Source of the DNA: Candidatus Omnitrophota bacterium
Lineage (GTDB): Bacteria; Omnitrophota; Gorgyraeia; Gorgyraeales; Gorgyraeaceae
Length of the DNA stretch: 64,000 bases
Assembly (NCBI GenBank): GCA_030691625.1
Contig: JAUYDX010000088.1
Location: 1,856 to 65,855, forward strand
Direction of reading: 5' to 3'
Translations under genes and position numbers: made by a program
Shown here: in pieces, positions 34,022 through 54,210 of the stretch
Numbering within the stretch: the stretch's first letter is position 1
Layout: each line of letters begins with the position of its first letter
Notes under the pieces: generated by a model
What the model was told of the DNA's origin: nothing
The model's input: only the letters and a program-made list of their open reading frames with translations
Databases searched by the model: none

Positions 34022-34063
34022 ATGGTGCCAGGCACCGTGCCTGGCACGGTGCCTGGCACCATC
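34021..34063. repeat. family-3 palindrome with duplicated arm
   Basis: AATGGTGCCAGGCACCGTGCCTGGCACGGTGCCTGGCACCAT. Confidence 0.9.
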
Positions 34064-34121
34064 TGCACTTGTTTTTTTCTATTTCTGTGGCATACTTATG
34101 AGTAGAGACAACTGAATAGCA

Positions 34122-34250
34122 TTACGACAAAGGCAAACCATTCGAAAGAATGGGGCGCAAAGTCAACAGGCCTAAAGCCCTGAAGGGCAACGGCGGCTGG
34201 ATTACCGAAATTAAAAACCTATTCTGCCATGAGGCCGGATAGGTTTTTTA
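34122..34250 (+). ncRNA. c-di-GMP-I (GEMM) riboswitch candidate with intrinsic terminator, in leader of RlpA-like gene
   Basis: GGCAAACC-AUUCGAAAGAAUGG-GGCGCAAAG-..GGCCUAAAG..GGAUUACCGAAAU closely matches the Vibrio Vc2 GEMM aptamer as recalled from memory (GGGCAAACCAUUCGAAAGAGUGGGACGCAAAGCC..GGCCUAAAC..GGUUACCGAUGG); followed by AACCUAU..AUAGGUUUUUU terminator 15 nt before the RBS. Confidence 0.6.
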
Positions 34251-34265
34251 TTTGGGAGTCTCAAG

Positions 34266-34649
34266 ATGAAAAAGGCCGCAGTCATATTGATAATTCTAAT
34301 GGCTGTGGTTTTTTCTTTAAATAATGCAAAGGGGGTCGCGACTTCCTCTGCCACCATTATTAAAGGTAAGGCATCCTGGTATTCCCAGAATGACCCCGGA
34401 ATCCTCCTCACTACAGCCAATATGGAGAGATTTGACGATTCCCAGTTTACCTGCGCCATATGGGACTTGCCATTCAACACTATATTAAAGGTAACAAACC
34501 TTGAGAACGGCAAATCTGTCATTGTCCGGGTTAATGACAGGGGCCCGGCAAAGAGGTTAAACCGCGCAATAGACCTCACCAAAACCGCGTTTTCCCAAAT
34601 ATGCGACCCTGAAAAAGGCCTCGCAGATGTTTCTGTGGAAACAATGTAA
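34266..34649 (+). CDS. RlpA-like double-psi beta-barrel (DPBB) lipoprotein
   Basis: signal peptide; GKASWY...ANGE..RVNDRGP motif typical of RlpA/3D DPBB domains. Confidence 0.65.
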   Translation: MKKAAVILIILMAVVFSLNNAKGVATSSATIIKGKASWYSQNDPGILLTTANMERFDDSQFTCAIWDLPFNTILKVTNLENGKSVIVRVNDRGPAKRLNRAIDLTKTAFSQICDPEKGLADVSVETM

Positions 34650-34838
34650 AACTCGCCTATTATACCTAAGTACAATTGATTTCATTTTGACATTCCTCTA
34701 TAGTATAAGCAGGTTTTAGAATGAGGAGAAAGGAGGCAATATGAAAGCGGAGGAAAAGGGGTTCAAAAAATTTTTATTGACAAATCAATTAAGGTAATTT
34801 ATAATACTTATTAACAAACTTTTAAAAGGAGGTGCGTG

Positions 34839-51463: not shown

Positions 51464-52909
51464 ATGAGCGCTGGGAAAAAGAAGGTATTATTAGCTGAGC
51501 ATGAGACAGGCATTGCTGAAATAATCCAGTATCTCCTTAAGGCGTGGGATTACGAAACGATTATTATTTCAAAGGGCTCGGCAGTGCTGGAGGCAGTGAG
51601 GCGGGAACAGCCGGATATTATAATAATAGACTGGGGCCTGCCTGACATGGACGGCCTCAAGGTTTCCAGGGTACTCAAGGAAGATTTTCTCACCGCGCAC
51701 ATACCCGTAATAGTCCTCATAGACAAAAAACAGATAAGAAAAAAGATGCTCGAGATAGAGCAGGGCGTGGACGATTATATCGCCAACCCGCCTGACCCTA
51801 TAGACCTGGAGGTCAGGATGGAGCTTGCCCTGCGCAGGACCAGCCACCAGCTTTACGCGAATGCCCTCACAAAACTCCCGGGAAATAAACAGATAGAAAA
51901 GGCCATACATGCCAGGATGGATGCGAAAGAATTGTTTTCAGTGGCGTATTATGATATAGATAATTTTAAATCATTCAATGACAAATACGGCTACATGAAA
52001 GGCGACAGCGTGATAAGGCACACGGCTTATATTATCTCCACAACGGTCAAGAGATACGGTAATCCCGGCGATTTCGTGGGGCACATAGGAGGGGACGATT
52101 TCGTGGTGGTCACTACGCCTGACAGGGACAGGCTGGTCGCATCAGAGTCTATACTGGCCTTTACCAGGGCAGTGCATTTTCATTATTCAAAAGAGGACAG
52201 GGACAGGACTTATATAGTGGCAAAAGACAGGCGGGGCAACGTGGTGAATACGCCTCTGATGAGCATCTCAATAGCCATAGCGAACAATAAAAATTTCCCT
52301 ATAAAAAATATGGTGGAGCTGATGGAGATTATCACAGAGATAAAACATTACCTGAAGACCCTGCCCGGGAGCAATTTTCTTGTGAATAGGCGCCAGACTG
52401 AAAAGAGGTTATTCATAGAAGAACCCTGCGCCGCGCCGGGACAGGCTAACAAAGAAGATAAATTCAGGCATAAGCCGCTCGGCCAGATACTGCTGGAGTC
52501 GCAGGTGATTACGCCGGAACAGCTTGAAACCGCGCTAAACAGGCATTGGTCCACCGGCCAGAAAATAGGACAAAGCATAATGAACCTTGGCATGGCCAGC
52601 TCAGGTGATATTGCCAGGGCACTGGAAACGCAGTTCAATGTCCCGCACTTTGATATCCGGGACATGAGCGAAAACGGAGAATTAAAAGAGATAATGTCCA
52701 AGGTGTCTTTTGAGATAATGAAACATTACGGGGTTGTGCCTGTGAGAAAGGATAAAAATACGCTGCTCCTGGCAATGCTCGACCCTAAAAATATGGAGGC
52801 AATGGCTAAGATAAAAAGCCTCACTGGGTGCGTCATAGCGCCTTTATTTGTCCTGGAGAGCGAATTCAGCGAGATATTTGACAGGGTGGCGGTTAAATCA
52901 GGGCTATAA
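51464..52909 (+). CDS. response-regulator receiver + GGDEF diguanylate cyclase (GGDDF) + C-terminal MshEN/T2SSE_N c-di-GMP-binding domain
   Basis: REC with conserved Asp; GGDDF active-site variant with RxxD-like I-site region; C-terminal LGQILLESQVITPEQLETAL...LLLAMLDP pattern typical of the GspE-N/MshEN fold. Confidence 0.8.
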   Translation: MSAGKKKVLLAEHETGIAEIIQYLLKAWDYETIIISKGSAVLEAVRREQPDIIIIDWGLPDMDGLKVSRVLKEDFLTAHIPVIVLIDKKQIRKKMLEIEQGVDDYIANPPDPIDLEVRMELALRRTSHQLYANALTKLPGNKQIEKAIHARMDAKELFSVAYYDIDNFKSFNDKYGYMKGDSVIRHTAYIISTTVKRYGNPGDFVGHIGGDDFVVVTTPDRDRLVASESILAFTRAVHFHYSKEDRDRTYIVAKDRRGNVVNTPLMSISIAIANNKNFPIKNMVELMEIITEIKHYLKTLPGSNFLVNRRQTEKRLFIEEPCAAPGQANKEDKFRHKPLGQILLESQVITPEQLETALNRHWSTGQKIGQSIMNLGMASSGDIARALETQFNVPHFDIRDMSENGELKEIMSKVSFEIMKHYGVVPVRKDKNTLLLAMLDPKNMEAMAKIKSLTGCVIAPLFVLESEFSEIFDRVAVKSGL

Positions 52910-52911
52910 AA

Positions 52912-53090
52912 AAGAAAAAAGCCGATAAAGGCTTTTAGCTTCGGCTTTTCATCGCTCGGCAACCCGGCCGCCATATTATTACTGACTGCCTCACTGACCA
53001 TTTGCGTTAGCTCAGGTCACGGCTTGTCAGAATAACTTAGGCCCGTAGGCTTTGCGCCCCCTGATTTCTCAGGGTTTGCCCTTATCGGCT
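52912..53090 (-). ncRNA. c-di-GMP-I (GEMM) riboswitch-like RNA with own promoter and terminator, convergent with/antisense-oriented to the GGDEF gene
   Basis: minus-strand RNA AGCCGAUAAGGGCAAACC-CUGAGAAAUCAGG-GGGCGCAAAGCC-UACGGGCCUAAG...GGCGGCCGGGUUGCCGAGCGAUG matches the GEMM consensus; ends in a hairpin plus U6. Confidence 0.55.
52917..52950. terminator. bidirectional intrinsic terminator (ends GGDEF gene on + and GEMM RNA on -)
   Basis: AAGCCGA..TCGGCTT hairpin flanked by A-run on one side and T-run on the other. Confidence 0.6.
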
Positions 53091-53137: not shown

Positions 53138-53183
53138 CAACAACTTGACACTTGTAACAATGTCACAAGTGTCAAGTTGTTGG
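53138..53183. repeat. family-1 palindrome copy O
   Basis: inverted repeat. Confidence 0.9.
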
Positions 53184-53196
53184 AGGGAGGTGAGGA

Positions 53197-54210
53197 TTGA
53201 AGAGATACAGTCTGGCAGTTTTGTTTGGCTTTGCGCTTGTATTGATGTCTTATGAATGCGCGTTTTGCAAGCCAATACCTATACGCAACCAGATGCCTTT
53301 GTATTTATTTTATCTGCAGATGGAGCCTGATAAAGCAGGCGTAACAGAGAAGGATAAATTTGATATAGACGCGGATTATACAGTTTCAAACGTAACCGTA
53401 AGCTGTTTCACCCCTGACACGTCCATGTACAATATAAACATTGACGCTGAGGTTTCCAGGGTGACGCTTGATCTAAGATACGGCGTTTTTGAGAATTTCG
53501 AGGCAGGCCTGGAGGCGCCTTATCTGATCCTGTCGCGGGGTTACTTAGATAGTTTTGTGGAAGATTTTGAGGACGCGATAGGCGCCAGGACGCCGCGCTC
53601 CAGGATACGCCAGGGCACAAATAATTACAATTACTCTTTTATCTACAATGGCCAGGATCTGATAAATAAGAAAAGCGCCTCGGACGGCCTGGGCGATATG
53701 GCGCTGAAGGCCAAATACAGGATTATCGAGGAGGAAGAAGGTTTTTTCGCGCCTAATGTCTCTATAAGGAGCGCGCTGAAGCTTCCCACGGGCAGGAAAA
53801 GGGACCTCCTGGGCAGCGGAGAATTTGACTGGGGCCTGGGCGTGATAGCTGACAAGTCATTTTCCAAGAGGATGAGTTTTTACTGCGGCCTGAATGTCGT
53901 GTTTATACAAAAGCCGGATTTTTTCAGCGCGTTGAATATAAAAAAGGAGATAGCCTCCGGTTTTATTGGCATTGAATATTTTTTCACAGAAAGGTTTTCC
54001 CTGGTGGCGCAGGTCTCAGGCAATACCACGCCTTACCCTGACAGCGGGACAAATGCCCTGGACGAGTCCGCGGGCGATGTGAGTTTCGGTATTAATTATA
54101 TCTGGAAAGAAAAGCGCAATGTTTCGTGGCGTTTCGCGTTTACGGAAAATATAAATTCCGCGTCCAGTCCGGACGTGAGTTTTAATACAGGGTGGGATGT
54201 GGGGTTCTGA
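53197..54210 (+). CDS. outer-membrane beta-barrel protein, hypothetical
   Basis: signal peptide, beta-strand periodicity, C-terminal GWDVGF. Confidence 0.5.
   Translation: MKRYSLAVLFGFALVLMSYECAFCKPIPIRNQMPLYLFYLQMEPDKAGVTEKDKFDIDADYTVSNVTVSCFTPDTSMYNINIDAEVSRVTLDLRYGVFENFEAGLEAPYLILSRGYLDSFVEDFEDAIGARTPRSRIRQGTNNYNYSFIYNGQDLINKKSASDGLGDMALKAKYRIIEEEEGFFAPNVSIRSALKLPTGRKRDLLGSGEFDWGLGVIADKSFSKRMSFYCGLNVVFIQKPDFFSALNIKKEIASGFIGIEYFFTERFSLVAQVSGNTTPYPDSGTNALDESAGDVSFGINYIWKEKRNVSWRFAFTENINSASSPDVSFNTGWDVGF

What the first reader, a model, noticed from the sequence alone, without database searches (positions are those of the whole stretch)
34122..34265. GEMM (c-di-GMP-I) riboswitch with terminator platform controlling an RlpA-like DPBB lipoprotein
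The leader of gene 34266-34649 contains GGCAAACC-AUUCGAAAGAAUGG-GGCGCAAAG..GGCCUAAAG..GGAUUACCGAAAU, with the P2 hairpin nearly identical to Vc2 (AUUCGAAAGAGUGG). It is followed by an AACCUAU/AUAGGUU hairpin plus U6, then 15 nt later the RBS GGGAG and ATG.

This is a classic transcription-termination expression platform. c-di-GMP riboswitches are known mainly in Firmicutes, Deltaproteobacteria and Vibrio. A DPBB/RlpA-like secreted protein as the regulated cargo is uncommon.
Basis: partly seen in the sequence, partly recalled or inferred. Interest (0 to 1): 0.6.

Follow-up and report, generated by a model that had tools for sequence, protein, structure and literature searches.

The report
c-di-GMP riboswitch before a DPBB gene
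This is a genuine c-di-GMP-sensing riboswitch with a terminator, sitting in front of a small secreted RlpA-like cell-wall-type protein in an uncultured Omnitrophota bacterium; it is a new example of a well-known RNA class, most likely a ligand-OFF switch, and it has an extra conserved 5'-leader/ribosome-site pairing.

Summary
Window 34122-34209 (+) matches Rfam RF01051 (c-di-GMP-I) at 81.8 bits (gathering score 35). It carries the canonical ligand-contact triad G20/A47/C92 (34132, 34159, 34205). Across 30 relatives, 17 of 23 tested base pairs show compensatory changes. A strong intrinsic terminator (34213-34249, U6) follows, then SD GGGAG and the ATG of a 127-aa DPBB protein. That protein passes the NCBIfam rlpA subfamily model, has a signal peptide but no lipobox cysteine, and lacks a SPOR domain, so "lipoprotein" is unsupported.

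The window comes from a Candidatus Omnitrophota MAG. The aptamer-DPBB pairing recurs in 36 of 80 species-level genomes as an independent single-gene cassette.

The aptamer and terminator share no bases and can coexist, which is the Cd1-type OFF layout. In sister lineages the P2 loop/3' arm forms a 12-15-bp antiterminator or anti-sequestor (z -3.4 to -6.5); the window keeps 8 bp. Terminator-less relatives bury the AUG in an extended P1. I infer that c-di-GMP turns the gene off (about 0.6).

This complementarity is conserved and tolerates insertions, but has no true covariation.

Verdict: new member of a known kind, modest interest.

The parts
34069..34096 (+). Inferred sigma-70-type promoter: -35 TTGTTT (34069-34074), 16-nt spacer, -10 CATACT (34091-34096). 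The transcription start is inferred at about 34103-34104.
   Evidence: cTTGtttttt-N16/17-(C/T)ATA(C/A)T is conserved at a fixed distance upstream of the leader in about 25 species. There are no transcript data, so the start site is an inference.
34104..34118 (+). Conserved 5' leader L (AGAGACAACUGAAUA). It is complementary to the SD region in two halves: GAGAC 34105-34109 and CUGAAUA 34112-34118.
   Evidence: Nearly invariant in 44 unique leaders and unique in the window. RNAduplex with the SD region averages -12.5 kcal/mol, z -3.4. Every observed substitution keeps pairing.
34122..34209 (+). c-di-GMP-I (GEMM-I) aptamer. P1 is 34121-34126 with 34206-34211 (one A.A mismatch). P2 is 34138-34153 with a GAAA loop at 34144-34147. 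P3 is 34161-34203.
   Evidence: RF01051 at 81.8 bits, gathering score 35. Helices covary across 30 relatives.
34132..34132 (+). G20 equivalent (contacts G-alpha of the ligand). With A47 equivalent at 34159 and C92 equivalent at 34205, it forms the canonical c-di-GMP triad.
   Evidence: Rfam alignment. The 27-nt G20-to-A47 spacing matches Vc2, Vc1 and Bc1. Wild-type G20 discriminates against cGAMP (PMC6140456).
34147..34154 (+). Last loop base plus P2 3' arm and one junction base (AGAAUGGG). This is the candidate antiterminator strand, pairing with CCUAUUCU at 34218-34225.
   Evidence: 8 bp, -10.9 kcal/mol, z -1.7 in the window. The homologous pairing is 12-15 bp, -17 to -20 kcal/mol, z -5 to -6.5 in the sister subclade. 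L065 and L034 show analogous pairings.
34213..34249 (+). Intrinsic terminator. 5' arm AAAAACCUAUUCUGCC (34213-34228), loop AUGA (34229-34232), 3' arm GGCCGGAUAGGUUUUUU (34233-34249) including U6 (34244-34249).
   Evidence: MFE folds. Hairpin energy -15.3 kcal/mol. The RNAalifold consensus shows compensatory changes in the upper stem. It shares no bases with the aptamer.
34249..34262 (+). SD region S: UAUUUGG (34249-34255), GA, GUCUC (34258-34262). It contains SD GGGAG (34254-34258) and is the partner of the 5' leader.
   Evidence: Both halves are retained when 55-70-nt hairpins are inserted (L018, L086, L087, L099, L110).
34266..34649 (+). Regulated gene: a 127-aa secreted stand-alone DPBB protein of the RlpA family, with an N-terminal hydrophobic signal sequence, no lipobox and no SPOR domain.
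   Evidence: Pfam DPBB_1 at 58.9 bits. NCBIfam TIGR00413 at 85.4 bits, cut-off 82.15. Best PDB match is 4avr PA4485, E 2.3e-14. 876 homologs, those with names all Omnitrophota.

Best explanation
A promoter at about 34069-34096 drives a single-gene transcript that starts at about 34104. Its leader contains a canonical c-di-GMP-I aptamer (34122-34209, G20/A47/C92). Behind the aptamer sits a separate, strong intrinsic terminator (34213-34249), then the SD and ATG of a secreted RlpA-family DPBB protein.

Shown:
- The aptamer is a member of the class.
- Its helices covary.
- The terminator hairpin is present.
- The aptamer-gene linkage is conserved in Omnitrophota.

Inferred: the switch is ligand-OFF.
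- With c-di-GMP bound, P1-P2-P3 are locked. The pyrimidine-rich 5' arm of the terminator is then free to pair with its 3' arm, and RNA polymerase terminates at the U-run.
- Without ligand, the P2 loop/3' arm (AGAAUGGG) can be invaded by the terminator 5' arm (CCUAUUCU). This forms an antiterminator and allows read-through.

In read-through RNA, the first 15 nt of the transcript pair with UAUUUGG..GUCUC around the SD. This closes a three-way junction with the aptamer and the terminator and damps translation, as a second lock. High c-di-GMP would therefore lower production of the DPBB protein.
For: Identity:
- RF01051 at 81.8 bits against a gathering score of 35.
- 17 of 23 pairs have double changes, 0 of 500 shuffles reach the observed values, and slid controls collapse.
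- Triad G/A/C at 34132/34159/34205.
- c-di-GMP signalling exists in the same window: a REC-GGDEF-MshEN protein with an MshE-type c-di-GMP-binding motif.

Linkage:
- Aptamer upstream of the DPBB gene in 36 of 80 species-level loci.
- The cassette is independent of its neighbours, and inverted in L023.

OFF logic:
1. The aptamer and terminator share no bases and coexist in the aptamer-constrained MFE. In characterised GEMM-I switches this is the OFF (Cd1) layout; in the ON switch (pilM) the aptamer and terminator are mutually exclusive (PMC9262584).
2. In the sister subclade, P2 loop+3' arm against the terminator 5' arm+loop gives -17 to -20 kcal/mol, z -5 to -6.5. That is stronger than the terminator itself.
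3. Platforms with unrelated sequence in L065 (z -3.4) and L034 (z -3.9; there the strand otherwise pairs with the SD) also use P2 as the switching partner.
4. The terminator-less relatives L022, L023 and L123 place the AUG 4 nt after CCGAAA, inside the extended P1.

Leader-SD helix:
- -12.5 kcal/mol, z -3.4.
- All substitutions keep pairing.
- 93.8% paired in register against 29-53% when slid.
- It survives hairpin insertions.
Against: - In the window's own subclade the P2:terminator-arm pairing is only 8 bp (-10.9 kcal/mol, z -1.7). It is near chance in L001, L003, L088 and L089.
- The co-transcriptional MFE partner of the terminator 5' arm differs between species.
- P2 is a stable local GNRA hairpin, so invading it needs kinetic help.
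- The leader-SD helix has no double compensatory change and does not beat the column-shuffle control (310 of 500). RNAalifold did not predict it.
- The SD is predicted to be mostly paired in every modelled state (P(unpaired) 0.13-0.24). It is therefore unclear how translation is ever fully released.
- The transcription start site is inferred only.
- There are no binding, termination or expression data.
Confidence: 0.6

Rival explanations
1. The riboswitch is the same, but ligand-ON. c-di-GMP stabilises P1 and an extension of it. That brings the leader's GAAUAG (34114-34119) onto the terminator 5' arm CUAUUC (34219-34224), acts as an antiterminator, and keeps the leader away from the SD.
For: - GAAUAG:CUAUUC appears in the MFE of transcripts ending at the terminator 5' arm, in the window at lengths 121-125 and in 5 of 24 species.
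- Base pairs just outside core P1 differ between species in a pair-preserving way by eye: AUU:AAU, GG:CC, AGG:CCU, UUUG:CAAA.
- The leader mimics the terminator 3' arm.
Against: - The leader:terminator-arm duplex is only -3 to -5 kcal/mol, z -0.4, so it is not above chance.
- The aligned P1 extension is only 36.8% paired.
- The aptamer and terminator are not mutually exclusive, unlike the characterised ON switch.
- The aptamer-constrained fold keeps the terminator.
- Relatives with the AUG inside the extended P1 argue for OFF.
- The mimicry follows automatically if the leader and the terminator 3' arm both match UAUU(C/U)-type strands.
Confidence: 0.2
2. The terminator is a constitutive attenuator that the ligand does not control. 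c-di-GMP acts only on translation or stability of read-through mRNA, by stabilising the three-way junction of leader-SD helix, P1 and terminator.
For: - No statistically strong antiterminator exists in the window's own subclade.
- The leader-SD helix abuts P1 and the terminator with linkers of 0-2 nt in the bound-state fold.
- Terminator-less relatives are clearly translational.
Against: - The terminator 5' arm CCUAUUC is invariant across 44 leaders while the upper stem drifts. That suggests a second pairing partner.
- The sister subclade has a highly significant antiterminator.
- Modelled SD accessibility barely changes with aptamer state.
Confidence: 0.12
3. The aptamer senses 3'3'-cGAMP, or both dinucleotides, as the GEMM-Ib class does, rather than c-di-GMP.
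For: GEMM-I and GEMM-Ib share the same fold, and Rfam does not separate them in this hit. I briefly entertained this idea after mis-numbering position 20.
Against: - The position equivalent to Vc2 G20 is G (34132), not A. G20 RNAs discriminate against cGAMP, and A is needed for cGAMP recognition.
- This G is at least 90% conserved in the 30 relatives.
- The only cyclase-like gene seen in the window keeps the Asp of the ...KGD base-specifying position, read directly from the sequence.
Confidence: 0.04

Closest known systems
Cd1 c-di-GMP-I riboswitch of Clostridioides difficile (flgB operon), a transcriptional OFF switch
   Same: Same aptamer class. The aptamer and the intrinsic terminator are separate and can coexist. 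An antiterminator that needs part of the aptamer competes with them (PMC9262584).
   Different: Here the candidate switching partner is the P2 loop/3' arm rather than the aptamer-closing strand. There is an additional 5'-leader/SD helix. The cargo is a DPBB protein, not flagellar genes. The phylum is Omnitrophota. The OFF behaviour is inferred here, not measured.
Vc2 (Vibrio cholerae) c-di-GMP-I aptamer, the structural reference
   Same: G20/A47/C92 triad. C44-G83-type interhelical positions (C34156, G34196). GAAA tetraloop on P2. The P2 sequence is almost identical to Vc2 as I recall it (from memory, not checked against a held sequence).
   Different: Different expression platform and regulated gene. 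P1 here carries an A.A mismatch and a species-variable extension.
pilM / Gs1761 GEMM-Ib riboswitches of Geobacter (3'3'-cGAMP, ON)
   Same: Same three-helix fold, followed by a terminator.
   Different: GEMM-Ib has A at position 20, and its terminator is mutually exclusive with the aptamer. The window has G20 and a non-overlapping terminator.
Bc1/Bc2 c-di-GMP-I riboswitches of Bacillus thuringiensis (long platforms; collagen adhesin cap)
   Same: c-di-GMP-I aptamers with a GAAA tetraloop and terminator-based platforms in front of surface or secreted proteins (PMC11218506, PMC4933901).
   Different: Different platform organisation (Bc1 has a dual terminator) and different cargo. No 5'-leader/SD clamp is described for them.
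RlpA (septal-ring lytic transglycosylase) and PA4485 of Pseudomonas aeruginosa
   Same: DPBB domain with the ASWY...VRVNDRGP motifs. Passes the TIGR00413 subfamily cut-off. Best solved relative is PA4485, a 95-residue stand-alone DPBB chain.
   Different: No SPOR domain and no lipobox, and only 127 aa. Enzymatic activity is untested. It falls far below the equivalog cut-off for E. coli-type RlpA (59.3 against 201).

Membership tests
c-di-GMP-I riboswitch aptamer (Rfam RF01051, GEMM-I) | Covariance-model score at or above the curated gathering score | tested here: met
   81.8 bits against 35, E 1.5e-14, model positions 1-87 of 87 matched.
c-di-GMP-I riboswitch aptamer (Rfam RF01051, GEMM-I) | Three-helix junction P1/P2/P3 maintained by compensatory substitutions | tested here: met
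   In 30 relatives: 88.7% of cells paired, 17 of 23 pairs with double changes, 0 of 500 shuffles reaching the observed values, slid controls 27-42%. By helix: P2 98.9%, P3 96.3%, core P1 84.5%.
c-di-GMP-I riboswitch aptamer (Rfam RF01051, GEMM-I) | Ligand-contacting nucleotides G20, A47 and C92 (Vc2 numbering) | tested here: met
   G34132, A34159 and C34205 by the Rfam alignment and by the 27-nt G20-A47 spacing seen in Vc2, Vc1 and Bc1.
c-di-GMP-I riboswitch aptamer (Rfam RF01051, GEMM-I) | GNRA tetraloop on P2 with a receptor-like CUAA element in P3 (type 1 GEMM), plus an interhelical C-G pair | tested here: met
   GAAA at 34144-34147 and CUAA at 34172-34175 match consensus positions. C34156 and G34196 occupy the C44/G83-equivalent positions. 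Docking itself cannot be tested here.
c-di-GMP-I riboswitch aptamer (Rfam RF01051, GEMM-I) | Selective, high-affinity binding of c-di-GMP | not testable with these tools
   Needs in-line probing, ITC or equilibrium dialysis.
Transcriptional OFF riboswitch (Cd1 type) | The aptamer and terminator can coexist; an antiterminator that uses an aptamer strand competes with them | tested here: inconclusive
   Coexistence is met: no shared bases, and the aptamer-constrained fold keeps the terminator. The antiterminator is strong in sister lineages (z -3.4 to -6.5) but weak in the window (8 bp, z -1.7).
Rho-independent terminator | GC-containing hairpin immediately followed by a U-run | tested here: met
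   Stem of 12+3 pairs at 34213-34249 with U6, -15.3 kcal/mol. Conserved in 44 leaders, with compensatory changes in the upper stem. The simple pattern scan missed it, probably because of the internal mismatch. Termination activity was not tested.
RlpA family (NCBIfam TIGR00413) / DPBB_1 (PF03330) | Profile score above the curated cut-off | tested here: met
   TIGR00413 at 85.4 against 82.15. PF03330 at 58.9 against 28.8.
Canonical RlpA (E. coli / P. aeruginosa type lipoprotein) | Lipobox cysteine and a C-terminal SPOR domain | tested here: not met
   No Cys before residue 63, in this protein or in 14 aligned homologs. Only a DPBB domain is found in 127 aa. The equivalog model NF007953 scores 59.3 against a cut-off of 201.

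The most novel reading that the evidence does not exclude
The leader may be a composite expression platform not yet described for GEMM-I. It would combine a P2-invading antiterminator with a 5'-terminal leader that clamps the SD into a three-way junction with the aptamer and the terminator. c-di-GMP would then shut off both transcription and translation of a secreted RlpA-like glycan-acting protein. That would tie the second messenger to cell-envelope remodelling, or to a host-attack function, in the ultra-small, possibly host-dependent Omnitrophota.
Probability: 0.2. Interest if true: 0.55.

Novelty: new member of a known kind. Interest (0 to 1): 0.35.

Why it matters
This extends a well-understood riboswitch class to a candidate phylum known only from metagenomes. 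It also identifies a conserved member of the c-di-GMP regulon there: a stand-alone secreted DPBB/RlpA-family protein. No paper in the library links that protein family to c-di-GMP riboswitches.

If the OFF logic is right, these bacteria make the protein when c-di-GMP is low. That gives a testable handle on what the protein does in organisms that cannot yet be cultured.

The conserved 5'-leader/SD pairing and the use of P2 as the switching strand are modest but concrete additions to the known range of GEMM-I expression platforms.

Tried and rejected
1. cGAMP (GEMM-Ib) idea. I first took the base before GGCAAAC as position 20, which is an A. Spacing data from Vc2, Vc1 and Bc1 showed that G20 is the first G of GGC. 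The triad is therefore canonical and the idea was dropped. Two look-ups of the Smith 2009/2010 papers failed because the papers are not held.

2. Leader GAAUAG paired with the terminator 5' arm as an ON-type antiterminator. It looked attractive by eye and in some MFE folds, but the duplex z is -0.4.

3. P3 3' strand (GGCUGGAU) paired with the terminator arm (AUUCUGCC). It appears in the window MFE at one transcript length, but z is only -0.6 to -1.4 and it is not conserved.

4. Thermodynamic test of ligand-dependent SD exposure. The SD stays paired in the free, bound and antiterminator states, so the test was uninformative.

5. RNAalifold on full leaders. It recovered P2, P3 and the terminator but not P1 or the leader-SD helix, because MAFFT mis-registers the variable U-runs and internal loop. 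A re-anchored alignment could only test the 5' half of that helix.

6. The simple terminator scan did not list the terminator.

7. Literature searches for RlpA D157 catalytic-residue data, and for c-di-GMP riboswitch together with RlpA, returned nothing.

8. Distant DPBB-linked aptamers L030, L025, L060, L042 and L080 show no significant P2 complement. Their logic remains open.

Full report
**What is there**

A scan of the whole window against Rfam 15 gives RF01051 (c-di-GMP-I) at 34122-34209 on the + strand. The score is 81.8 bits against a gathering score of 35, E = 1.5e-14, with the full model matched. The 171-nt leader folds far better than its shuffles (z -5.2). Its MFE holds the P2 hairpin and a long hairpin ending in a U-run. 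The downstream ORF 34266-34649 encodes 127 aa with a Pfam DPBB_1 domain (58.9 bits).

**Origin and conservation**

- The protein is 100% identical to a 'septal ring lytic transglycosylase RlpA family protein' of a Candidatus Omnitrophota MAG. It has 876 homologs, and those with names are all from that phylum.
- A profile search of one genome per species returned 80 loci.
- Rfam gathering-threshold scans find a c-di-GMP-I-clan aptamer on the coding strand upstream of the DPBB gene in 36 of the 80. By decreasing protein identity the counts are 19/20, 13/20, 2/20 and 2/20. In one of these, L037, the aptamer is 1.8 kb upstream with other ORFs between.
- Eighty more metagenomic loci brought the set to 46 unique leaders.
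- Synteny shows the promoter-riboswitch-DPBB unit is an independent single-gene cassette. Its downstream neighbour differs between species, and the cassette is inverted in L023.

**Aptamer membership**

- An alignment of 30 aptamers was tested against the Rfam-derived structure. It gives 88.7% paired cells and 17 of 23 pairs with changes on both sides. 0 of 500 shuffles reach the observed values, and paired cells fall to 27-42% when the 3' partners are slid.
- By helix: P2 is 98.9% paired with double changes at 5 of 6 pairs, P3 is 96.3% paired, and core P1 is 84.5% paired.
- The ligand-contacting positions are G34132, A34159 and C34205.
- I first mis-numbered position 20 as the preceding A and considered a cGAMP (GEMM-Ib) reading. 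The 27-nt G20-A47 spacing reported for Vc2, Vc1 (G12, A39) and Bc1 (G11, A38) fixes G20 as the first G of GGCAAAC.
- G20 RNAs discriminate against cGAMP, and A is required for cGAMP recognition (PMC6140456).
- The same window encodes a REC-GGDEF-MshEN protein with an MshE-type c-di-GMP-binding motif. c-di-GMP is therefore a plausible native ligand.

**The regulated protein**

- It passes NCBIfam TIGR00413 (rlpA subfamily, 85.4 against 82.15). It is far below the E. coli-type RlpA equivalog cut-off (59.3 against 201).
- Its best solved relative is P. aeruginosa PA4485, a 95-residue stand-alone DPBB chain (E 2.3e-14).
- It has an MKK-hydrophobic N-terminus but no cysteine before residue 63, and neither do 14 aligned homologs. 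It has no SPOR domain.
- It is therefore a secreted or periplasmic stand-alone DPBB protein, not a lipoprotein. Its activity is unknown.

**Expression platform: what is shown**

- The terminator (34213-34249: 5' arm AAAAACCUAUUCUGCC, loop AUGA, 3' arm GGCCGGAUAGGUUUUUU) is predicted by MFE. Its energy is -15.3 kcal/mol. It appears in the RNAalifold consensus of 21 leaders, with compensatory changes in the upper stem.
- Its lower stem CCUAUUC/GAAUAGG is invariant in 44 leaders while the upper stem drifts. That hints at a second pairing partner.
- The terminator shares no nucleotide with the aptamer.
- Upstream, a promoter-like cTTGtttttt-N16/17-(C/T)ATA(C/A)T is conserved, followed 6-7 nt later by an almost invariant AGAGACAACUGAAUA. 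I take the start of this motif as the 5' end of the transcript. That is an inference.

This 15-nt leader is complementary to the SD region in two halves around a 2x2 loop: CUGAAUA with UAUUUGG, and GAGAC with GUCUC. The pairing sequesters GGGAG.

Support:
- RNAduplex averages -12.5 kcal/mol with z -3.4 across 24 species.
- Every substitution seen preserves pairing: position 10 shows U:G, U:A and C:G; position 11 shows G:U and G:C; positions 2 and 6 show wobble changes.
- Both halves are kept when 55-70-nt hairpins are inserted, either between the terminator and the SD or inside the internal loop (L018, L086, L087, L099, L110). Hairpins inserted between the leader and P1 (L016, L032) also leave the leader intact.

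Limits:
- On a register-anchored alignment the 5' half is 93.8% paired against 29-53% when slid. There are no double compensatory changes, and the column-shuffle control is not exceeded (310 of 500).
- RNAalifold did not predict the helix.

The helix therefore rests on conserved complementarity, not on covariation.

**ON or OFF?**

I tested three candidate partners of the terminator 5' arm.

| Candidate partner | Result |
|---|---|
| Leader GAAUAG (would give an ON switch) | -3 to -5 kcal/mol, z -0.4; not above chance |
| P3 3' strand | z -0.6 to -1.4; not conserved |
| P2 loop/3' arm, window | 8 bp (AGAAUGGG:CCUAUUCU), -10.9 kcal/mol, z -1.7 |
| P2 loop/3' arm, sister subclade | 12-15 bp, -17 to -20 kcal/mol, z -5 to -6.5; stronger than the terminator (-9.5 to -14.7) or P2 (-4 to -6) |

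Further evidence for OFF:
- Two more distant DPBB-linked aptamers with unrelated platform sequences do the same. In L065 the pairing scores z -3.4. In L034 a 15-bp P2 complement (z -3.9) otherwise pairs with the SD.
- The terminator-less relatives L022, L023 and L123 place the AUG 4 nt after the P1 3' strand, inside an extended P1.
- In characterised GEMM-I switches, the aptamer and terminator are mutually exclusive in the ON switch pilM. In the OFF switch Cd1 they coexist and compete with an antiterminator (PMC9262584). The window has the coexisting layout, and the aptamer-constrained MFE is a compact three-way junction of the leader-SD helix, the aptamer and the terminator.

Together this favours ligand-OFF at about 0.6. 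I put ON at about 0.2, and a ligand-independent attenuator with translational control only at about 0.12.

Caveats:
- The window's own antiterminator is weak.
- The MFE partner of the terminator arm varies between species.
- The SD is predicted to be mostly paired in every modelled state.

**Comparison with the known, and novelty**

The RNA is a bona fide member of a class described in 2007-2008. Terminator platforms are standard for that class. The phylum and the cargo gene are not mentioned in any paper I could find. The leader-SD clamp and the use of P2 as the switching strand are variations in platform design. Overall this is a new member of a known kind, of modest interest.

**Seen in passing**

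A second canonical c-di-GMP-I aptamer lies at 53089-52954 on the minus strand. It has a roughly 55-nt P3 insertion, and its best Rfam label, RF03167, is only just over threshold at 59.9 against 59. It has A, not G, at the position that defines the 'GGC' variant.

It points into the 3' end of the REC-GGDEF-MshEN gene, and no ORF lies downstream on its own strand. The same antisense arrangement is present in 4 of 4 homologous loci with 64-84% protein identity. c-di-GMP riboswitches are reported to have the strongest tendency of any class to act in antisense (PMC9943018).

Noticed in passing
window 52954-53089 (- strand), with terminator-like hairpin and U-run at about 52903-52945: A second c-di-GMP-I aptamer. 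Its best Rfam label is RF03167 at 59.9 against 59, but it has A at the position that defines the GGC variant, and it carries a roughly 55-nt P3 insertion. It lies on the opposite strand in the spacer between the REC-GGDEF(GGDDF)-MshEN gene (51464-52909) and a DUF3187 gene (53197-54210). It points into the 3' end of the signalling gene, and no ORF lies downstream on its own strand. The same antisense arrangement is present in 4 of 4 homolog loci (L161-L164). This may be c-di-GMP feedback through antisense transcription.
   Followed up: partly
window 53140-53175: A perfect inverted repeat, TTGACACTTGTGACATTGTTACAAGTGTCAA, lies just upstream of the second aptamer on the minus strand. It could be a promoter, an operator or a divergent control site shared with the DUF3187 gene.
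   Followed up: no
window 34024-34062: Directly after the PIN-PhoH gene stop there are overlapping palindromes, GGTGCCAGGCACC / GTGCCTGGCAC / GGTGCCTGGCACC. They are followed by the T-run that also forms the inferred -35 region of the riboswitch promoter. This is probably the upstream gene's terminator, but it is unusually repetitive.
   Followed up: no
window 34741-34797 (+): An 18-codon ORF (MKAEEKGFKKFLLTNQLR) with a strong SD (AAGGAGG) lies between the DPBB gene and the 857-aa six-PKD-domain protein. A perfect 12/12 sigma-70 consensus promoter (34777-34805) lies inside it. This may be a leader peptide or a small protein.
   Followed up: no
L033:1235-1322: Among the DPBB-linked aptamers, L033 alone has A at the G20-equivalent position (AAAGAGCAAACC). 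It scores just above the gathering threshold (40.2 bits) and could be a GEMM-Ib-like (cGAMP) or degenerate variant.
   Followed up: no
L034:1845-1900: In this relative the platform has no terminator. A strand, CGCCCUCAUCCUUUGA, can pair either with the P2 loop/3' arm (15 bp) or with the SD AAGGGGUGAG. This is a clean translational version of the same switching logic.
   Followed up: partly
window 51464-52909 (+): The response-regulator protein has GGDDF in place of GGDEF/GGEEF, fused to a c-di-GMP-binding MshEN domain. It may be a degenerate cyclase acting as a c-di-GMP receptor rather than a synthase.
   Followed up: no
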